From assembly GCA_001002325.1 (NCBI GenBank), contig LCNZ01000008.1, positions 1-40,009 of the forward strand: a DNA stretch of 40,009 nt. The letters are read 5' to 3'. The position numbers and the translations under genes are program-made. Below, one piece after another: positions 1 to 7,434 of the stretch; the first letter of the stretch is position 1, and the number at the start of each line of letters is the position of its first letter. Source of the DNA: Candidatus Amesbacteria bacterium GW2011_GWB1_47_19 (GTDB lineage Bacteria > Patescibacteriota > Microgenomatia > CAZETR01 > Amesbacteraceae). The notes under the pieces are model-generated. The model did no database searches and was not told the DNA's origin. It saw only the letters and a list, made by a program, of their open reading frames with translations.

Positions 1-315
1 CTGGGAGAATTTGGCAAGTGAGGGATTGTAATAACGGGCGTTATAGTAATAAAGACCGGTGGTATCCACATCAGATATTTGGCCGGTGTATTGTTTTTCC
101 GTGGGCAGACTGTCGGAAGCGCTGCGGGTGGTACCGTAGGGATAGTAACTTTGTTTAGACACCAGTCGCCCTTGGGTGTCCGTTACCCTGCTGGTACTCC
201 CTAAATGGTCCGGGTGGATAAAGTAGAGGGTATCGGACGCCTGGGAATTGGATGCCTGAAGGAAAAACCCCACGATGAAACTTCCATAAAGGATTATTGA
301 TTTTTTTGCACCCAC
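1..315 (-). CDS. Rhs-associated core module with signal-peptide-like N-terminus (partial, runs off the window; not in the ORF track)
   Basis: Manual translation from GTG at 315: MGAKKSIILYGSFIVGFFLQASNSQASDTLYFIHPDHLGSTSRVTDTQGRLVSKQSYYPYGTTRSASDSLPTEKQYTGQISDVDTTGLYYYNARYYNPSLAKFSQ. It has the DHLGS, YxPYG, YTGQ and GLYYYNARYY Rhs-core motifs. An in-frame TAG lies just upstream of the GTG. Confidence 0.8.
   Translation of the reverse strand, partial: MGAKKSIILYGSFIVGFFLQASNSQASDTLYFIHPDHLGSTSRVTDTQGRLVSKQSYYPYGTTRSASDSLPTEKQYTGQISDVDTTGLYYYNARYYNPSLAKFSQ
8..148. repeat. Direct repeat copy A of the Rhs-core DNA
   Basis: 8-62 is identical to 1600-1654 (55 bp) and 80-148 is identical to 1672-1740 (69 bp). 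The 17 bp between them carry 7 mismatches. Confidence 0.95.
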
Positions 316-377
316 CCTGTTCTATGCTAGAGCATGTAAACAGGGAATACAACTATGCCCAGTAGTTATATAGATAT

Positions 378-587
378 TTAAAGCGCATTTTCCTCCAAGT
401 CTTTCCTGTGCAGCTCTTTGGCGAGGGATAAGTAGATTTCAGTGTTCCTAACGTCTTTGTGGCCCATCACTTCCTGGATGGTCTTGATATTCGTTCCTTT
501 TGCGGCGTGATGCGCTCCGAAGGTGTGTCTCAGACTATGCACCGAAGCCCCAATTATTCCGGTTTGGGTAAGATATTTTCTCAGCAT
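378..587 (-). pseudogene. Tyrosine recombinase/integrase C-terminal fragment (XerC/D-like)
   Basis: Contains HSLRHTF (HxxR), MGH and catalytic Tyr in NTEIY. Only 69 aa, with an in-frame TAA immediately before the ATG. The N-terminal domain and first catalytic Arg are absent. Confidence 0.8.
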
Positions 588-698
588 TTAGCTTACCTGG
601 ATGAGGGTTATAAGAAAATTACAAGGACTGAGGTAATGAATGTATTAAAAGTCTGGGAGTGAAGATGGTCTTTCCAATTATTTAAAACCTGTTCATAT

Positions 699-1874
699 TC
701 ACTGCGCGACATTCTTACCAGCCCATAACTCCATTCGTCTTTGCTCAATAATTCCATAATTAAACCAGGGGTCTGCTAAATATCCTGTTTGAACATGCTG
801 AAATTGTTCGGTGTACATAATTCGGTAGTCTGAAAACCCAGACTCCGTTAACCTCCATGTCATGTATTCCGGCGGTACAATAATGGTTTTGTCCATTTGA
901 TTTGAAGCTCCTCTATATATATAGGATCCCCCCGGCTTTACCACTCTGCTAACTTCGTCATAATAGCTTGGTTCGAACAACAAATCTGCGGGTAAACATG
1001 AAGAGCAGGCAAAATCCACCGAGTTTGACGCAAAAGGCAGGTTTAATGCGTCTGCAACTACATCCGGTTTTGCTCCTATATCAATATTTACCGTGGTGCG
1101 CGGAGGAAGGTCAGGAAATTGATAATAACCCGAGGCATTTCCTCCACCAATGTCAATTAGTACAGGCGCGTTAGATGCTGAATCGGCGTCATCGATTGCT
1201 CTTCCCAGGCTATTTGTAACATTCGGCCCAGCCGCTTGTGCCGCAACTGCACACATTCCCGGATCCCCTGCGAATGCGCACAAGGTCGTATCTAACGCTT
1301 CAGCTACTTGCGGGCCAGCTACATACATTGCCCCCCAATAAGCTGCTACCTGTGGCGCAACGGTTAATACTGTTTGCGCGGCTTTTTGAGTAAAACCTTC
1401 AGGATCATTTACCCAGTACGATGCTAAATTATTTGCGAATTTCCTAATTCCATTAAAGTCATGAGAAATAGCCTCTTTCCAGCAATTGGGATTCCAAGGA
1501 ACACAAGCTTCTCTTCCAGTGGGGTCAACTAAGGAAGAGGGATTATTTTTTACATAAGCATAGAGATTGAGGCCGTTAAGGGCAGAATCAGCTTGGGTAA
1601 ATTTGGCAAGTGAGGGATTGTAATAACGGGCGTTATAGTAATAAAGACCGGTGGAATCGGTATCAGAAACCTGGCCGGTGTATTGTTTTTCCGTGGGCAG
1701 ACTGTCGGAAGCGCTGCGGGTGGTACCGTAGGGATAGTAATTCTGTTTTGAAACCAGCCTTCCGGAAGTATCCGTAGCCAGAGCGGTACTACCCAAATGA
1801 TCGGAGTGAATATAGACAAGTGACTGCGCGGATACAAATTGCTGGCGGTTACCGGCTAATGGTGATGTTGTCAA
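699..1874 (-). CDS. Rhs-associated core + DPxG cleavage site + C-terminal class I SAM-dependent methyltransferase-like tip
   Basis: YIHSDHLGS...GLYYYNARYY...NLYAYVKNNPSSLVDPTG (DPTG at 1515-1526), then VLIDIGGG, NIDI, ADALNLPFASNSVD and SRVVKPGG (Methyltransf_11-type motifs). The TTG start is uncertain and overlaps the upstream ORF in another frame. Confidence 0.85.
   Translation of the reverse strand: MTTSPLAGNRQQFVSAQSLVYIHSDHLGSTALATDTSGRLVSKQNYYPYGTTRSASDSLPTEKQYTGQVSDTDSTGLYYYNARYYNPSLAKFTQADSALNGLNLYAYVKNNPSSLVDPTGREACVPWNPNCWKEAISHDFNGIRKFANNLASYWVNDPEGFTQKAAQTVLTVAPQVAAYWGAMYVAGPQVAEALDTTLCAFAGDPGMCAVAAQAAGPNVTNSLGRAIDDADSASNAPVLIDIGGGNASGYYQFPDLPPRTTVNIDIGAKPDVVADALNLPFASNSVDFACSSCLPADLLFEPSYYDEVSRVVKPGGSYIYRGASNQMDKTIIVPPEYMTWRLTESGFSDYRIMYTEQFQHVQTGYLADPWFNYGIIEQRRMELWAGKNVAQ
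1600..1740. repeat. Direct repeat copy B of the Rhs-core DNA
   Basis: Partner of 8-148 (offset 1592). Confidence 0.95.
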
Positions 1875-4800
1875 AAGTCCGGCCGGAGATATAGGCTTCG
1901 TTTAAGGCGTCCGCGAAGAGACGGATGGTATCCACCCCAAGAATGTTGGAGAAGGGAATGCCGGATTTGACAACGGTGTCGTTGACTGCCACGAAGTAAG
2001 TATGAGTTGAAAAATCCATGGTAATTTTCAAATTCTTGGCACCGGTAATGGTAGTAATCGAGGTATCAACTCCTCCTTTACGGGAAGCTAGTGTTTCCTG
2101 GACTCCATTTAAGTTTTCCCAAACCAGGCTAATGGCCACCCCGGTATTCTGGTCGGTGTCGGAAAGAGTGGCGCTGTCTCCCAGCTGCATAAACAGGCGG
2201 TAAGTATTTTCAGTAGTAGTCCTGGTCCAGTTGAAATCCATACTCCAGATAAGCTGGCCTGTAGTAACTTTGGTAAAAGTGTGCTTGACGAAAGGCAGAT
2301 TTACCTGATCGGTAGTTTTACTGAAATATAACTGGTTGTTGTAGACTTCGACCAGGGCGTTAACATTTTCTTTTTCGATCCAGGAATTGCCGACAATACC
2401 ACTGTTGGCCCGGGTGAAAGCGTCGGAAAAGATGACAGACGCCGAAGGCGTAGGCGACGGGGTGGGGGTGCGGGTAGGTCCGGGTGTAGGTGTACGGGAA
2501 GGTCCCGGAGTGGGAGTACGGATGGGAGTGGAGGAAGGTGCGGGAGCGGATGTCCCGCTATCTCTAACGGCTACCAGTTTTCCGACAAAGTAATAGTTTT
2601 TGCGCCAACCGAGGCTGTTCCCGGGCTGAGAGGTGAGCTCGAGATAGGGGCTGAAATACAAAGTGGCCGGTCCCGAAGTGACAAGTTTGGCCAGCCGCTG
2701 GCCGGATGCATCATAATAAAAGGAAGTGTTTTTGTACTGAGCGCCCAGGGGGGTAACTTTGGCCAGGCGGTTGTCTTTGTCGTAGGTGTAGGTACGCAAG
2801 TCATCACGGGTCAGGTTACCCACGACGTCGTAAGTATTTGCCATACCGGAAGAACCTCCGATGCTGACAAACTGCGGGCGATGATAGAAGCCGCCGGCCG
2901 CGCTACCGTACTGCAAGATTACAGACTGGGGGCCTTCGGTTTTGGTAAGTATGTTGCCGATGTCGTCATAGGTATAAGAAGCGGTATAGGCCCCGGAGGT
3001 ATTGGTGAGCCGGTTTAGGGGATCATAAGTAAAGTTCTGAGTCAGGTAAAAAGCCGAGCCGGGAGCTGACAAGGGATTGTCGTCGGTGATTTTGGTGATG
3101 CTTCCCAGGGGGTTGTAACTGTAAGACAGAAGAAGTTCGTCGGTATCCGCCAGGTTCGGGCCGGTAACCGACAATGAACCCAGACGGTTGTTTGAAGCGT
3201 CATATGAATAACTATTGATAACGCCATTTCCGGATGTGAAGCGGGTCATTTGGCCATCCTTATTGTATCTGGCCTGAGAGACATACGACGAAGTACCCCC
3301 GGTAGAGTAGAGATACGGCCGGTTGTACGTGTAATTAATTGTTTCCTGAGGAACTGAGTAGACGGTGACAGCTGAATGGTTTTCGGATAATGGCCTGCCA
3401 CCTGAGTCGTATGCATAGGTCACAGTTTCAGACAGAGCAGGTGCGGTCGAACCAGGCGGGATACCTGCCTGGGTGATAATTGTTTTTGAGGCCCTGCCCC
3501 GGTTATCGTATTCATTTTTTACCGTCCGGATTTCCACGGAACTTCCCGGGTCGTAGGAGTGGACTTCACAGGCTCTGCCGATACCTCCGGGGCAGGTGTC
3601 ATAGACGTTTTTTAATAGTTGCGTACCGGCGACGGATTTCGTCAAAAGCCGATTTAGTCCGTCGTAGGTGAGAGTAGATATTTCAGCTTTGGGATTAGTT
3701 TGTTTGACCAGGCTGTCCGACTTGTCATATTCGTACCTCCAGGAGTTGGCATCCCCGCTCATCTGGGGACTCATATCGACATTCCATAACTTGATTTTCC
3801 GTCCGAGAGTATCGTATTCAGTAATGTTTACCGGATTGCCCAACGTGTCCCTGGTTTTGGTTTCCGTACCCAGGACGGGTTGGTATTCATGGGTGGTAGT
3901 ATAAGTTTTTGAGGGTGCAACCTCCTCAGTTTTAAGTATCCGGCCGAAAGCGTCCGCTGTGGAAATGCTTTCGGCGCACGGGGTGGCGGAATTCCCGTCG
4001 GTACAATTTGGGCTGAGGGATTTGGTTTTGAGGGGATTCCCGCCGACATCATATTCAGTCCGGGCTGATGAGCCGTCCGGATAATTGACTGCGGTAAGCC
4101 TGCCGAAACCGTCAAAGGTATTTTTTATCTTTTTGATATCCGCGGTGGTTAAAAAGTTACGGGTGTCGTAAATATTGGTGCCGGGAGGGAGATAGGGGGC
4201 GGCGGTGTAACTCAGACTTTGGTATTCAACCTGACCCAGGCTGGTATAACTCTGGGAAGTCAATATGTCATTGAGATCGGTGCCGACAGGAATGCCGGCT
4301 GCGGACCATTCGTTTTCGTACCAGGAACTCCGGGTTTGGACTGTCTGACCCAGGCCGTTGGTAAAAATGTATGTCCCGGAAACCTTACCGACAGTGCCGG
4401 CATCGGCAAACCTGTTTCCCCGAAATACCAGTAATTTCGGGCCGGTATTGTTGACCTGGCGACCCAATCCGGTGAAACAATTGTTGGCTTCAGTGCAGGG
4501 GGAAATTTCGGTCTCATTGAAGTAATAATATTTGGAGAAGGCGTCGGGTTTGATACCGGTCCCCGGTTTTTTGCCGGGAAGATATGATTCAACCAAACGG
4601 CCAAAGGAGTCGTAAACAGAGGTGGCTGCAGAACCGTTGGGGTCGGTTACTTTTACCGGCAGTCCCCGAACCCCAGAATAATTCGGGTGAGAGGTATCGG
4701 TGATATTGAAGTCATAAGCGATCTGGGAAACCTGGCCGAGGTGGTTGGTGGTTTTGACCGGATAGATGCGGAAAACCGTATCGTATTCCGTCGAAGTAAT

Positions 4801-7383
4801 CCTACCCAGGGGGTCGGTGGACTTTACAGCCAACCAAGGATAAGTTGAATCGTAAGTGGTGGAGGTGCCGGCGTATGCCGCGCCGTTGACTAGGGAGGTG
4901 ATTTTGGTAATCCGGCCGAAGTCCCCCAGGGCGCCCAAGGTTTTGCCGTCATAATAAGTCTGGGTGTGACGGTATTTGGTACCGGAGGAGGAGTTGCTGA
5001 TCCAGGTTTCCTTGGGCAGGGGCAGAATACCTTTGGCGGTATTGGCAGCGGTATAATCGGTGATGCTGTAGAGGGGAGAATCGGAGGTGTCGTCAACGTT
5101 GGCATCAAGGCAGTTGACCTTGCCCCAGTCAACTACTGTGTGGGGCAGGGCGTACGGATCGCTGGTGCCGTCAAGGTGATTGTAGTTGGTGGTTGACCGG
5201 GTACACAGCTGGGGACCGGGCATGAGGGATTGGGTTCTGGATTCCACGGGCATGACCAGAGTAACGGTGCCCGACGGAAGGTACGAAACGCAATAGGAAG
5301 CGAGATCACCGGAGGTCTTTTCCACAACAGGGGTGCCGAACATATCTCCGAAACGAACTTTGTAATCCTGGACGGTCTGGATATAACTGGTGGTGTTTTT
5401 GGCGTCAAAGACGATGGTTCGAGAAGGCAATCCTTTGAGAGGATTGGGCTTAAAACAATTCGGGGTCTCAATTTTCTGGAAATAGATCTTTTTGGTTTTT
5501 GAGGCTAAAACGGTTTTGCTGTTTTGGGCATAGACAGAGGTAGTAACTTCCGGGTAACCCAGGAACTGGAATTCGGCCAGGGTGGCGTAGTTTTCGACCG
5601 ACGCCAAACCCTGAGATGCTCCGTCTCCGGTATAGGCATAGGAAGTCAGGAAAAAATTACCCATGCCGTCTTCAATAATTTTTGCGGCAATGCGGTGCTG
5701 CTGGGCGTTTTTGGCATGGTCGGTCCGGCAACCTTCCCCTGCCTCCATAATGTCGGGGTCACAATATCTGGTATTCAGGGCGTTTTTGGCATTGGCGTCC
5801 TGCCAATATTCGTAAGTAACTCTAGCGCTGTAGCCGTTTTCGACCGATTTCAGGAAAAAATCATTGGGGGTTATTTCCTGGACATTTGATCCACCGCGAT
5901 CCGTGAATGAAGTCAGCTGAGTGTATGAGAATTTGGATGAAGGCAGGCGTTTGGCAGATGCGTTTCCTGCCCGATCACTGTCATATACCCTGATTTCAGA
6001 CAGGAGAGAATGGATGGTTTTGTAATTGACAACTTCCGACTGGGAGTCGGGGATGCCGTTATTGTTGGCGTCATTGTGCTGTGCCGGATTCCAGCCGTAT
6101 TTGTAACTAAATTCATAAGCTCCGACCGATTTGCCGGAAGTTTTTATGGAAATTCTTAAAAGTCTGTCTTTGGATCGAAAGTATTGTTTTTGGAGAGTGG
6201 TGTCTCCACCGATTGCGGTGTAGTAGTCAAACCGGGGTTCCCGGATGAAATTCACCTCGTTTTTGCCGTAAGTGATTTTTAACGGATAGGCGGATGAGAC
6301 GTAATAATTGGAGTGAAAAGCACCTAATTCGATCCTGTACGAATAGTTAATTACAGCCGGGGTGCCGGAATTGACATTAAACGGACTTTCGACTTTGGAT
6401 AAATGCCATTTATAGGTATTTGAAACATAAGTGTTGCTTTCCTTGACCAACTTCCAGGCGATGGGACTATCTGCGCCGGAGGCAGTCTGGGTATATAACG
6501 GATACCAGTCATTACCCGTGCCTTCGGGTAAATTATCTCCTTCGGGGTCGTACTGTGTTTTCCAGTTGGTAACGGTGGTGGGATAGCCAAAGTAGTATTT
6601 GGTGCCGTCGGCACCGGTCACCAGCCAGTGATAGCGGCAGACGCTCAGTTCGCGGTTGGTACCTTCTTCGGCAATAATTTTGCATCTGGCCCACCTTTCG
6701 GCTTTTATCTTTAGGTTAGGGACTGTCCTCCAGACGCTGTAAAAACCGTCATCGGTCTCGTTGGACAATTTGGCTGATCCACCGGGAAAAACCAGAGTAT
6801 AACCCGAAGCCGATTTGGCGATATAGCTGATGCCTCCCAAGTCCCAGCCTAAACCTACAAAACCGGCCTGGTTCTGATACGGGACATTAATATCGTTGCG
6901 CCAGAGAGTGCTGGTACCTAATTGCAGGTTATCAACTGAAGCGGAGGAGTATCCGATATTCAGAGAGGGGGTCAGGCCGGCCGGCCCCGGAGGCAGGCTA
7001 ACGGGAACAGAAGCGGTAACCGCCCCGTTGAACTCGTCACTGCCGAATCCGTTGATGGAAGGGACAATTTGTTTACCTGTATCCCCTTCGGCGAGGGTTT
7101 CGGTGGCGGCTTGAAGAACCCGGACATCGGAAGGTGATGACCGGGAAACCTCCAGCCGGTTTACCAGAGGGGTATAGTCCTCACCTGTTACCTGGCCGTC
7201 GCGATTCAGATCGTAACGCAAGTCTCCGGTGCCCAGAGATGTAAAAAATTCAGGTACGGAAAGACCAGAGGGTGATTTGTTTACAACTGACTTCAGAGAG
7301 ACAATTACCAGAAGGGGGAGAAAAACGGCAGCAAGCAGCAATAGGAGCGGAAGACGGGGGTGTGCAGAATTAAAGCGGGACAT
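1849..7383 (-). CDS. Large Rhs/YD-repeat shell protein: N-terminal TM anchor, dockerin/EF-hand-like motif, SpvB/TcB-like region, YD repeats, Pro/Thr linker, C-terminal lectin-like beta-sandwich; lacks the Rhs core
   Basis: TM segment LPLLLLLAAVFLPLLVIVSL; YDLNRDGQVTGEDY; SpvB-like VPVSLPPGPAGLTPSLNIGYSS..GLGWDLGG; many YDxxGR repeats; (RTPTPGP)n; FSDAFTR...FDNITIS domain. ATG at 7383 is preferred over TTG at 7416. Confidence 0.85.
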   Translation of the reverse strand: MSRFNSAHPRLPLLLLLAAVFLPLLVIVSLKSVVNKSPSGLSVPEFFTSLGTGDLRYDLNRDGQVTGEDYTPLVNRLEVSRSSPSDVRVLQAATETLAEGDTGKQIVPSINGFGSDEFNGAVTASVPVSLPPGPAGLTPSLNIGYSSASVDNLQLGTSTLWRNDINVPYQNQAGFVGLGWDLGGISYIAKSASGYTLVFPGGSAKLSNETDDGFYSVWRTVPNLKIKAERWARCKIIAEEGTNRELSVCRYHWLVTGADGTKYYFGYPTTVTNWKTQYDPEGDNLPEGTGNDWYPLYTQTASGADSPIAWKLVKESNTYVSNTYKWHLSKVESPFNVNSGTPAVINYSYRIELGAFHSNYYVSSAYPLKITYGKNEVNFIREPRFDYYTAIGGDTTLQKQYFRSKDRLLRISIKTSGKSVGAYEFSYKYGWNPAQHNDANNNGIPDSQSEVVNYKTIHSLLSEIRVYDSDRAGNASAKRLPSSKFSYTQLTSFTDRGGSNVQEITPNDFFLKSVENGYSARVTYEYWQDANAKNALNTRYCDPDIMEAGEGCRTDHAKNAQQHRIAAKIIEDGMGNFFLTSYAYTGDGASQGLASVENYATLAEFQFLGYPEVTTSVYAQNSKTVLASKTKKIYFQKIETPNCFKPNPLKGLPSRTIVFDAKNTTSYIQTVQDYKVRFGDMFGTPVVEKTSGDLASYCVSYLPSGTVTLVMPVESRTQSLMPGPQLCTRSTTNYNHLDGTSDPYALPHTVVDWGKVNCLDANVDDTSDSPLYSITDYTAANTAKGILPLPKETWISNSSSGTKYRHTQTYYDGKTLGALGDFGRITKITSLVNGAAYAGTSTTYDSTYPWLAVKSTDPLGRITSTEYDTVFRIYPVKTTNHLGQVSQIAYDFNITDTSHPNYSGVRGLPVKVTDPNGSAATSVYDSFGRLVESYLPGKKPGTGIKPDAFSKYYYFNETEISPCTEANNCFTGLGRQVNNTGPKLLVFRGNRFADAGTVGKVSGTYIFTNGLGQTVQTRSSWYENEWSAAGIPVGTDLNDILTSQSYTSLGQVEYQSLSYTAAPYLPPGTNIYDTRNFLTTADIKKIKNTFDGFGRLTAVNYPDGSSARTEYDVGGNPLKTKSLSPNCTDGNSATPCAESISTADAFGRILKTEEVAPSKTYTTTHEYQPVLGTETKTRDTLGNPVNITEYDTLGRKIKLWNVDMSPQMSGDANSWRYEYDKSDSLVKQTNPKAEISTLTYDGLNRLLTKSVAGTQLLKNVYDTCPGGIGRACEVHSYDPGSSVEIRTVKNEYDNRGRASKTIITQAGIPPGSTAPALSETVTYAYDSGGRPLSENHSAVTVYSVPQETINYTYNRPYLYSTGGTSSYVSQARYNKDGQMTRFTSGNGVINSYSYDASNNRLGSLSVTGPNLADTDELLLSYSYNPLGSITKITDDNPLSAPGSAFYLTQNFTYDPLNRLTNTSGAYTASYTYDDIGNILTKTEGPQSVILQYGSAAGGFYHRPQFVSIGGSSGMANTYDVVGNLTRDDLRTYTYDKDNRLAKVTPLGAQYKNTSFYYDASGQRLAKLVTSGPATLYFSPYLELTSQPGNSLGWRKNYYFVGKLVAVRDSGTSAPAPSSTPIRTPTPGPSRTPTPGPTRTPTPSPTPSASVIFSDAFTRANSGIVGNSWIEKENVNALVEVYNNQLYFSKTTDQVNLPFVKHTFTKVTTGQLIWSMDFNWTRTTTENTYRLFMQLGDSATLSDTDQNTGVAISLVWENLNGVQETLASRKGGVDTSITTITGAKNLKITMDFSTHTYFVAVNDTVVKSGIPFSNILGVDTIRLFADALNEAYISGRTFDNITISR
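2437..2560 (-). repeat. Pro/Thr-rich coding linker (RTPTPGP-like units)
   Basis: SAPAPSSTPIRTPTPGPSRTPTPGPTRTPTPSPTPSAS. Confidence 0.85.
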
Positions 7384-7434
7384 AAAATCTCGGTATCCGG
7401 AATAAGTGTATATCAAACAAGCTGAATTTGCATC

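What the first reader, a model, noticed from the sequence alone, without database searches (positions are those of the whole stretch)
1800..2600. Split Rhs: shell ends in linker + lectin-like domain, and core-plus-tip is a separate reading frame
Seen: the shell reads ..RKNYYFVGKLVAVRD, where Rhs proteins normally continue within a few residues to YxHxDHLGS. Here a Pro/Thr linker (2437-2560) and a ~195-aa beta-sandwich follow, ending FDNITISR-TAA. The missing strand LVYIHSDHLGS resumes about 30 nt later in the +1 frame, preceded by FVSA|Q, which resembles a signal-peptidase site. The second module (1-315) starts at the same place. Inference A: a natural two-part Rhs in which one surface-anchored, glycan-binding shell accepts interchangeable, separately made core/tip plugs. 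Inference B: one ~2,230-aa protein with a looped-out adhesin domain, broken by a 1-nt indel or read by +1 frameshifting (removing one C from AGC CGG TAA fuses the frames). Either architecture is unusual.
Basis: partly seen in the sequence, partly recalled or inferred. Interest (0 to 1): 0.75.

Follow-up and report, generated by a model that had tools for sequence, protein, structure and literature searches.

The report
Split Rhs toxin with secreted plugs
In this tiny groundwater bacterium the large Rhs toxin cage and its toxin-carrying end pieces are separate genes, each with its own export signal, and the odd frame jump seen in the window comes from a 52-base gap in this assembly.

Summary
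The sequence features are there as described. The "+1 frame, about 30 nt later" geometry is not what other data show. Contigs from 4 of 4 public runs and one JGI contig carry 52 extra bases at 1842|1843. The shell's TAA stays. Five bases after it comes an ATG and a textbook Sec signal peptide (MKQIVSLVLPGLTILLLPQFVSA|QSL...) heading module 1. A database protein of 398 aa is exactly this gene.

So inference B (one protein, indel or frameshift) is rejected. Inference A (a natural two-part Rhs) is supported and holds well beyond this locus. In nine other Microgenomates loci a core-less YD-repeat shell, with an N-terminal hydrophobic signal or anchor where its start is in view, is followed by 1-3 core-plus-tip genes that each start with a signal peptide. 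At least four different split points occur. At each one the shell stops where the module's mature end begins. Two relatives are single ORFs with an accessory domain looped in at such a point.

The 195-aa domain folds as a concanavalin-A-like sandwich (pLDDT 97). Other shells carry different domains, or none, in that slot.

Assembly of the parts outside the cell is inferred, not shown. I found nothing on this arrangement in the papers searched. I rate it a new variant of a known kind.

The parts
1849..7383 (-). Rhs/YD-repeat shell gene (1844 aa from the ATG; the open frame reaches back to a TTG at 7416). It has no Rhs core.
   Evidence: ORF. Pfam RHS_repeat E 2.6e-24. NCBIfam YD_repeat_2x E 3.3e-15 and no Rhs_assc_core hit. 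An identical 1844-aa protein, P0002, is on record.
7294..7383 (-). N-terminal hydrophobic signal or anchor of the shell (MSRFNSAHPRLPLLLLLAAVFLPLLVIVSL)
   Evidence: Read. Shells of relatives start in the same way. No signal-peptide predictor was available.
2560..2604 (-). Last shell strand pair, RKNYYFVGKLVAVRD. This is split point 'd'.
   Evidence: The same motif ends the Rhs part of P0004-P0008, L006, L007, L009 and L122.
2437..2559 (-). Pro/Thr-rich linker
   Evidence: Translation.
1852..2436 (-). 195-aa accessory domain with a concanavalin-A-like beta-sandwich fold, followed by TAA at 1849-1851
   Evidence: No Pfam or NCBIfam hit, even at E 10. 256 representatives at E<=1e-3. AlphaFold2 pLDDT 97.1. 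Foldseek hits to the calreticulin lectin domain, Emp46/47 CRD, legume lectins, CBM66 and a BT_1020 domain.
1842..1843 (.). Place where this assembly lacks 52 bases that other assemblies have. Those bases hold the start codon and most of the signal peptide of module 1.
   Evidence: 4 of 4 runs; L082; P0176, P0183 and P0185 all begin MKQIVSLVLPGLTILLLPQFVSA.
1827..1842 (-). Remnant of the module-1 signal peptide (c-region, ..QFVSA)
1515..1826 (-). Module 1, mature N-terminus and Rhs-associated core (QSLVYIHSDHLGS ... LVDPTG)
   Evidence: NCBIfam TIGR03696 E 3.1e-22. Alignment A3 with invariant D101, P102 and G104.
699..1514 (-). Module 1 variable tip (271 aa plus stop). The C-terminal part is methyltransferase-like.
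   Evidence: Pfam Methyltransf_11 E 8e-6, 26.8 bits against a cut-off of 21.2. Weak PDB hits to SAM methyltransferases, E 0.014-0.2. Atlas leads at 0.76-0.78.
1..315 (-). Module 2 start: GTG, signal peptide MGAKKSIILYGSFIVGFFLQASNSQA|SD, then the core. It runs off the contig and continues on contig C13.
   Evidence: TIGR03696 E 6.4e-10. Exact 99-nt overlap of the window's start with the start of C13.

Best explanation
This is a natural multi-gene Rhs system, not a broken gene. One gene makes the YD-repeat shell. The shell has an N-terminal hydrophobic signal or anchor and ends right after its last strand. From there a Pro/Thr linker carries a concanavalin-A-like accessory domain. Downstream lie several small genes. 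Each encodes a Sec signal peptide, the strand(s) the shell lacks, the Rhs-associated core (the self-cleaving closing piece, ending DPxG) and a different C-terminal tip. Shown here: the gene boundaries, the signal-peptide-like starts, the recurrence of this layout in relatives, and the exact fit of the two parts at four split points. Inferred: both parts are exported unfolded through Sec, and outside the cell a module completes the cage by adding its strands to the shell's open end, with its tip taken inside. One 5.5-kb shell could then be armed with any of several payloads, which would save space in a 1-Mb genome. The accessory domain would bind a sugar-bearing surface. The frame jump in the window is a 52-base gap of this assembly, or a rare deletion variant, that removes the start and signal peptide of module 1.
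For: (1) The junction. 4 of 4 runs have 52 extra letters at 1842|1843. L082 shows TAA, 5 nt, then ATG and MKQIVSLVLPGLTILLLPQFVSA|QSLVYIHSDHLGS. P0176 (398 aa, 99% identical) is this signal peptide plus the window's module 1, tip included. (2) The shell stop is a feature of the lineage. 5 of the 6 Microgenomates shells found (P0004-P0008) reach the ..AVR strand and none of them continues into a core. All 13 of 13 more distant Rhs proteins in the same search do. (3) Locus layout. A core-less shell is followed by signal-peptide-bearing modules in L006 (3 modules), L007 (2), L010, L119 (3), L120 (3), L122, L123 (2), L124 (2) and G216. (4) Four split points, each complementary: (a) L010, (b) G216, (c) L119/L120/L123/L124, (d) window/L006/L007/L122. 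Where the shell stops earlier, the module's mature end starts earlier. Nothing is missing and nothing is duplicated. (5) Survey of 300 other genomes of the class. 45 core matches lie in 21 genomes. Only 5 sit in open frames above 1500 aa, 2 in frames of 660-695 aa, and 38 in frames of 218-499 aa. (6) Of the 120 best database relatives of module 1 (from 1335), 100 have a signal-peptide-like start by a simple hydrophobicity rule. Their source names are Woese-, Ames-, Gottesman- and Roizmanbacteria, Microgenomates and Patescibacteria. (7) Full-length Sec-exported Rhs proteins (WapA) are established, so folding of such cages outside the membrane has a precedent (passages of PMC12704120).
Against: No experiment or structure shows that shell and module bind. 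The complex predictor was not available. Signal peptides were judged by eye and by a crude rule, not by a trained predictor, and cleavage is not shown. In every solved Rhs or Tc cage that I recall, the toxin is enclosed by a chain that also contributes the closing core. Loading a pre-made shell in trans after Sec export has no precedent. Some short modules in the class lack a signal peptide (L095, L098, L104), so ordinary orphan fragments exist there too. Some short frames are cut by contig ends. The order of modules and tips at this locus is uncertain. The roughly 190-300-nt core is repeated, contigs break in it, and the same signal-peptide-plus-core head occurs with three different tips in different assemblies (P0176, P0183, P0185). 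That could be real recombination or chimeric assembly. If the 52-base deletion is real in the strain behind this window, module 1 is dead there.
Confidence: 0.7

Rival explanations
1. Inference B: one protein of about 2,230 aa with a looped-out domain, interrupted by a 1-nt sequencing error or read by +1 frameshifting.
For: In the window as assembled, the core resumes about 30 nt after the stop in another frame. Two distant relatives do carry an accessory domain looped into one continuous ORF (L088 with a frame of 1805 aa, L089 with 2065 aa).
Against: The only indel found is 52 bases. It keeps the TAA and adds an out-of-frame ATG and a signal peptide. P0176, P0183 and P0185 are called as separate genes of 369-398 aa in other assemblies. 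Five related shells stop at the same point with different or no C-terminal domains.
Confidence: 0.03
2. The modules are classical silent orphan rhs-CT cassettes. They are not expressed on their own and serve only to recombine into a full-length gene.
For: The modules share a near-identical core stretch. The same head is found with three tips, and L082 has a different tip behind the shell than the window does. So recombination, or assembly through the repeat, does shuffle tips. Reviews define orphans as lacking trafficking modules and recombining with the main gene (passages of PMC4436062).
Against: No full-length gene with a core of its own is available to recombine into. The shell lacks any core here and in nine other loci. 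Modules have their own start codons and signal peptides, whereas an orphan described in a WapA locus lacked a signal sequence and had an incomplete core (passage of PMC12704120).
Confidence: 0.07
3. Shell and modules do not assemble. The modules are stand-alone secreted toxins that use the Rhs core only as a self-cleaving pro-domain. The core-less shell is an adhesin or a decayed gene.
For: Each module has its own export signal and a complete core with the DPxG end. G036 shows three modules with no shell in the 16.5 kb fetched. No binding evidence exists.
Against: The exact fit at four different split points is hard to explain unless the two parts form one fold. The shells are long intact ORFs of 1659-2179 aa kept in roughly 1-Mb genomes and always sit directly upstream of the modules. 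Modules of split types a-c begin with 30-120 aa of shell repeats that would have no partner alone.
Confidence: 0.17
4. The 52-base difference is a real deletion in the strain behind this window, so module 1 there is a dead gene. It is not an assembly error.
For: The window's assembly reads cleanly through the place. The 52 bases were not found elsewhere in the same genome with an 86-nt query (an empty answer of little weight). L082 has its own private 14-nt gap relative to the window and to the Logan contigs (window 3001-3014), so small indels do differ between assemblies of this population.
Against: None of the 4 runs laid shows the shorter form. These are contigs, though, which drop rare variants.
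Confidence: 0.2

Closest known systems
WapA-type Rhs proteins of Gram-positive bacteria (Sec-exported, wall-associated)
   Same: A YD-repeat cage, an Rhs core and a variable C-terminal toxin, exported by an N-terminal Sec signal peptide from cells without an outer membrane (passages of PMC12704120).
   Different: WapA is one polypeptide with one signal peptide. Here the cage and the core-plus-toxin are separate genes, each with its own signal peptide. Most modules seen have no immunity gene behind them.
Orphan rhs-CT / immunity modules downstream of rhs genes
   Same: Tandem alternative tips that share a conserved core stretch with one another, and signs of tip shuffling.
   Different: Classical orphans lack trafficking signals and depend on recombination into a complete main gene (passages of PMC4436062; PMC12704120). 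These modules have start codons, signal peptides and a complete core, and the main gene has no core at all.
ABC (Tc) toxin B and C subunits (TcB/TcC, YenB/YenC) - from my own recall, not from a call
   Same: A YD-repeat cocoon built from two separately made proteins. Several interchangeable C subunits with different payloads share one B subunit. Natural fused forms also exist.
   Different: There the split lies mid-cocoon, both parts fold in the cytoplasm without signal peptides, and a TcA translocator is the partner. Here the split lies 0-120 aa before the core, all parts carry Sec signals, and Pfam detected no SpvB/TcB N-terminal family on the shell. The name 'TccC7, partial' on P0008 is a source's own label.
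T6SS-associated Rhs effectors (RhsA, Rhs1, Tse15)
   Same: Cage plus self-cleaving core plus enclosed toxin (titles and abstracts listed).
   Different: Those are single chains with PAAR or clade domains and are fired by the T6SS. No such N-terminal parts or secretion system were seen here.
Concanavalin-A-like lectin/glucanase fold (calreticulin lectin domain, Emp46/47 CRD, legume lectins, CBM66)
   Same: The fold of the 195-aa domain: Foldseek probability 1.00, TM-score (query) 0.5-0.71.
   Different: Sequence identity is 9-18%. There is no Pfam match. Sugar-binding residues were not examined. The domain family is otherwise found on non-Rhs multidomain proteins.

Membership tests
Rhs / YD-repeat polymorphic toxin | YD (RHS) repeats that form the shell | tested here: met
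   Pfam RHS_repeat E 2.6e-24 and NCBIfam YD_repeat_2x E 3.3e-15 on the shell.
Rhs / YD-repeat polymorphic toxin | Rhs repeat-associated core domain (TIGR03696) ending in the DPxG-type self-cleavage motif | tested here: met
   Module 1 E 3.1e-22; module 2 E 6.4e-10. D, P and G of ..DPTG are invariant in 13 of 13 aligned cores. Cleavage itself is not testable here.
Rhs / YD-repeat polymorphic toxin | Shell, core and toxin on one polypeptide | tested here: not met
   A TAA ends the shell before the core. The core starts a separate gene with an ATG and a signal peptide. The same holds in nine related loci.
Rhs / YD-repeat polymorphic toxin | Cognate immunity gene directly after the toxin tip | tested here: inconclusive
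   Most modules abut the next module with no room for a gene. After module 1 there is only a recombinase fragment. After module 2 a reading frame of about 90 aa could be an immunity gene.
Classical orphan rhs-CT module | No start codon or trafficking signal of its own; incomplete core | tested here: not met
   ATG, GTG or TTG starts, signal-peptide-like N-termini and a full core.
Sec signal peptide (on shell and modules) | Positively charged n-region, hydrophobic h-region, small residues at -3/-1 before the mature end | tested here: inconclusive
   All three regions are visible by eye in modules of the window, L006, L007, L010, L082 and L119-L124. 100 of 120 relatives pass a hydrophobicity rule. 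No trained predictor was available and there is no cleavage evidence.
ABC toxin B/C subunits | SpvB/TcB-type N-terminal domain and an adjacent TcA gene | tested here: not met
   There is no such Pfam hit on the shell at E<=0.01. The N-terminal 628 aa gave only a sub-threshold dockerin hit (E 0.083) in a Pfam scan run with max_evalue 10. A TcA gene was not looked for specifically.
Concanavalin-A-like lectin/glucanase superfamily (accessory domain) | Two-sheet jelly-roll sandwich | tested here: met
   15 strands, pLDDT 97.1. Foldseek top hits are all of this fold.
Concanavalin-A-like lectin/glucanase superfamily (accessory domain) | Carbohydrate-binding site | not tested
   No residue-level comparison was made. 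Binding is an inference from the fold.

The most novel reading that the evidence does not exclude
Microgenomates build Rhs toxin cages outside the cell from separately Sec-exported pieces. A membrane-tethered, core-less shell with a variable accessory domain at its open end is closed in trans by any one of several small plug proteins (missing strands, self-cleaving core, payload). The payload would be threaded into the cage after export. The split has arisen, or moved, at least four times at hairpin boundaries that also take domain insertions. In some lineages the N-terminal third of the shell is a further separate exported gene (L010). This would be a combinatorial, genome-saving weapon of episymbiotic bacteria against their hosts or rivals.
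Probability: 0.45. Interest if true: 0.85.

Novelty: new variant of a known kind. Interest (0 to 1): 0.7.

Why it matters
Rhs and Tc cages are thought to enclose their toxin while one chain folds around it in the cytoplasm. This is a whole bacterial class in which the cage and the closing piece with its payload are separate, individually exported proteins, cut at several different but always complementary places. If the parts do assemble, loading can happen in trans and outside the cell, and one cage can serve many payloads. That bears on how these cages fold, on how toxin repertoires diversify in very small genomes, and on how CPR bacteria deal with host cells. It also offers small, naturally separated parts for structural and biochemical study. 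For genome annotation it matters too. These genes are labelled 'hypothetical' or 'RHS repeat domain-containing' and look like fragments, but they are probably complete. The case also shows that an apparent frameshift in a metagenome-assembled genome should be checked against other assemblies first.

Tried and rejected
- Complex prediction (shell aa 900-1622 with the core alignment) was not available. No binding prediction was obtained.
- RNA evidence: no RNA holder was listed among the 18 runs.
- Own-genome search for the 52-base stretch, with an 86-nt query, gave no match. This is an empty answer of little weight.
- Pfam and NCBIfam gave nothing for the 195-aa domain, even at E 10.
- Pfam gave no family for 18 of the 24 module proteins scanned. 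The tip-region hits were one methyltransferase-like, one GNAT, one trypsin-like and two weak HMG-box. One further module hit only the Pfam RHS core family.
- Idea rejected: that 'KKSIILYGSFIVGFF' of module 2 is a relic of the shell strand 'RKNYYFVGKLVAVRD'. The many other modules show ordinary, unrelated signal peptides at that place.
- Idea rejected: that other Rhs shells carry the same ConA-like domain. 15 long proteins with the domain were checked and all have 0-1 YD motifs.
- Literature: four searches found no paper describing a core-less shell with signal-peptide-bearing core modules. They were Rhs + signal peptide + Candidate Phyla Radiation; Rhs/orphan/signal peptide/core domain/YD repeat; Rhs + Patescibacteria; and 'split/bipartite/two-component Rhs', 'Rhs shell', 'truncated Rhs', 'Rhs cage'. 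The phrases 'split Rhs', 'bipartite Rhs' and 'two-component Rhs' had 0 occurrences in the 20 papers listed out of 35. Subscription journals are not covered.
- Earlier findings of this scan: two look-ups returned nothing.
- A second structure prediction, of a fused relative, was not run. The tool returns no coordinates, so loop exposure could not have been read from it.
Full report
**What the window holds.** The window is the first 40,009 bases of contig C8 of a 998-kb genome in 15 contigs. On the minus strand an ORF runs from 7383 (ATG; the open frame reaches back to a TTG at 7416) to a TAA at 1851-1849. It has RHS/YD repeats (Pfam E 2.6e-24; NCBIfam E 3.3e-15) but no Rhs-associated core. It starts with a hydrophobic stretch (MSRFNSAHPRLPLLLLLAAVFLPLLVIVSL). 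In another frame...FVSAQSLVYIHSDHLGS... opens a 391-aa frame (1874..699). This frame holds the Rhs-associated core (TIGR03696, E 3.1e-22) and a 271-aa tip whose end is methyltransferase-like (Pfam Methyltransf_11, E 8e-6). A second module starts at 315..1 with MGAKKSIILYGSFIVGFFLQASNSQA|SDTLYFIHPDHLGS and runs off the contig.

**The junction is not as assembled.** I laid Logan contigs of four runs from four studies on window 1-3200. In all 4 of 4, a contig bridges 1842|1843 with 52 letters that the window lacks. No other insertion or deletion was reported. A JGI metagenome contig, L082, was found with a 30-base pattern from the shell's end. It is identical to window 3000..1843 (0 mismatches in 1158 bases) and has exactly 52 extra bases at that spot. 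Read on the minus strand it gives ...ISR-TAA, five bases, then ATG: MKQIVSLVLPGLTILLLPQFVSA|QSLVYIHSDHLGS. That start has a charged residue, a hydrophobic run and a small-residue cleavage region. The TAA stays, and the ATG is not in the shell's frame. 52 mod 3 = 1, which explains the "+1 frame". A database protein from other assemblies, P0176 (398 aa, 99% identical), is this signal peptide plus the whole of module 1, with the same tip. It separates the genes more clearly instead of fusing them. Whether the window's shorter form is an assembly error or a rare real variant cannot be told from contigs. L082 has its own private 14-base gap at window 3001-3014, where the Logan contigs agree with the window.

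**The shell's stop is a property of the lineage.** A search with shell residues 1400-1855 found 25 proteins. Six are Microgenomates shells, and five of them reach the ..AVR strand. P0004 stops two residues later. P0005 and P0008 go on into a linker and dockerin-like repeats. P0006 and P0007 go on into another domain of about 190 aa. None continues into a core. The sixth, P0009, ends earlier. All 13 of 13 more distant Rhs proteins in the same list run straight through YxxxDHLGS and the core.

**Related loci show what follows the shell.**
- An Amesbacteria MAG (L006) has a shell ending GKLVAVRKK-stop. Three tandem modules follow, each starting with a signal peptide that ends ..AAE(T/S)L just before xF(I/V)HxDHLGS.
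- A Gottesmanbacteria MAG (L007) has a shell with a 188-aa extension and two such modules.
- L009 has a shell with an extension that runs to the contig's end.
- L011 is a single fused ORF (...SAVRIGQAGSESKSFIHSDHLGS).
- L012 ends too early to tell.

**Other split points, always complementary.**
- In a Woesebacteria MAG (L010) the shell's Rhs part ends ...YTYDADNRLTNVVPKEQ and goes on into dockerin-like, Pro/Thr and Cys-rich parts. The modules read signal peptide | QTSSNTVDFLYDGSGQRIYK...GKLVAVRDNSGGTGQVNYIHQDHLGS, so they carry the last 70 or so shell residues themselves.
- In G216 the shell ends ...FAYDGDGNRVMKKT plus a Cys-rich part, and the module starts signal peptide | SITTLYFGPFEKT....
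- In four genomes of another family (L119, L120, L123, L124) shells of 1659-2083 aa end ...IYYFGAYEDEYSEE-stop (L119, L120) or in the equivalent diverged stretch (L123, L124). They are followed at once by two or three modules that start signal peptide | (Q)SRTTRFRVPVNKTIIQVEKK...LIQDYLSS.
- In G020 (L122) a 2179-aa shell ends ...GKLVAVR plus a short Pro/Thr tail and is followed by a module with a signal peptide.
- That makes four cut positions within the last 120 or so residues of the canonical shell. At each, the shell's end and the module's mature start fit with nothing lost or doubled.
- Two relatives (L088, L089) are continuous ORFs of 1805 and 2065 aa with a Pro/Thr-plus-Cys-rich insert at such positions. 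So the looped-out layout of inference B exists, but not here.

**How common it is.** In 300 other genomes of the class, 21 had core matches, 45 in all. Five lie in open frames above 1500 aa, two in frames of 660-695 aa, and 38 in frames of 218-499 aa. With the shell's last 223 residues as query, only 6 of the 300 matched, so most shells are too diverged for that query. Of six regions fetched around module arrays, five showed a core-less YD-repeat ORF directly upstream. One (G036) showed three modules and no shell within 16.5 kb. Among the 120 best of 1335 database relatives of module 1, 100 pass a simple rule for a signal peptide: they start with M, and a 10-residue window of mean hydropathy 2.0 or more begins within the first 30 residues. 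The core motif starts within 45 residues in 57 of them, at 46-80 in 11 and at 81-140 in 26. This is a heuristic, because no trained predictor was on hand. A few modules without a signal peptide also exist (L095, L098, L104).

**The accessory domain.** It has no Pfam or NCBIfam match. It does belong to a family with 256 representatives at E<=1e-3, mostly on other multidomain proteins and in up to three copies. None of the 15 long carriers I checked is an Rhs shell. With a 23-row alignment, AlphaFold2 gives an all-beta sandwich (pLDDT 97.1, pTM 0.92). Foldseek places it with the calreticulin lectin domain, Emp46/47 carbohydrate-recognition domains, legume lectins, CBM66 and a domain of sialidase BT_1020 (probability 1.00, TM 0.5-0.71, identity 9-18%). 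The fold is lectin-like. Sugar binding is an inference. The specific domain is a local acquisition, but the slot at the shell's C-terminal end is used again and again for different domains.

**The rest of the locus.** The reverse complement of the window's first 99 bases equals the first 99 bases of contig C13. There module 2 continues. It is followed by a frame of about 90 aa that might encode an immunity protein, and that frame runs without a stop into the signal peptide and core of a third module. The third module's tip (HEMGH motif) lies in another frame. The same signal-peptide-plus-core head occurs with three different tips in other assemblies (P0176, P0183, P0185), and L082 has the module-2 tip behind the shell. 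So either tips are shuffled by recombination in the repeated core, or assemblies are chimeric there. The order of tips at this locus should not be trusted.

**Mechanism.** Shown: separate genes, export-signal-like starts on shell and modules, complete cores on the modules, complementary split points, and conservation across several families of the class. Inferred: both parts cross the membrane unfolded by Sec, as the single-chain WapA proteins are believed to do (passages of PMC12704120), and a module then completes the shell's sheet and closes the cage with its payload inside. This is a step beyond anything shown for Rhs or Tc cages. The complex predictor was unavailable. The main rival is that the modules act alone, which I put at 0.17. 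The frameshift reading gets 0.03 and the silent-orphan reading 0.07.

**Comparison and novelty.** It works most like a WapA-type, Sec-exported Rhs crossed with the B/C subunit logic of Tc toxins (one cage part, several interchangeable payload parts; recalled, not from a call). It fails the 'single polypeptide' feature of Rhs proteins and the 'no trafficking signal' feature of orphan modules (passages of PMC4436062). Four literature searches found no description of it. I rate it a new variant of a known kind, with interest 0.7.

Noticed in passing
window 378-587 (-): A 69-aa frame matches only the C-terminal end of a tyrosine recombinase (Pfam Phage_integrase, profile positions 114-170 of 172, E 3.3e-11). 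It lies between module 1 and module 2, and only about 110 bases lie upstream of it, so it is a remnant.
   Followed up: partly
window 1-99 and L005 (contig C13) 1-2318: The window's start overlaps the start of contig C13 by exactly 99 bases. Module 2 continues on C13 (1-906). A frame of about 90 aa follows (from 911) and could be an immunity gene. It runs without a stop into the signal peptide and core of a third module, whose HEMGH-containing tip (1533-2318) is in a different frame. That could be another small assembly indel or a real frameshift.
   Followed up: partly
window 3001-3014 vs L082: JGI contig L082 lacks 14 bases that the window and the Logan contigs have, which breaks the shell's frame in L082. 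Small private indels therefore differ between assemblies of this population in both directions.
   Followed up: partly
window 699-1514 (-): The payload of module 1 ends in a class-I SAM-methyltransferase-like region (GxGxG-like VLIDIGGGNASG; Pfam Methyltransf_11 above its cut-off; weak PDB and Atlas leads). As far as I recall this is an unusual kind of Rhs tip. A GNAT-like tip and a trypsin-like tip occur in related modules (L119, L124).
   Followed up: partly
P0176, P0183, P0185 (database proteins): The identical signal peptide and near-identical core head are joined to three different tips in different assemblies. This is either recombination within the repeated core or chimeric assembly.
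   Followed up: partly
L010 9908-21114: In a Woesebacteria MAG the N-terminal third of the shell is a further separate ORF (804 aa, with its own hydrophobic start and a PA14-like end), so the Rhs is in three exported pieces. A nucleotidyltransferase/HEPN-like gene pair lies between its two modules. L011's fused ORF also starts with a signal peptide at the equivalent of shell residue 490 or so.
   Followed up: partly
window 1810 (loose ends): In three runs, 100-nt contigs leave the window sequence at 1810 and read ..AAETLEFIHSDHLGS on the minus strand. This is a further module with another signal-peptide end in the same communities.
   Followed up: no
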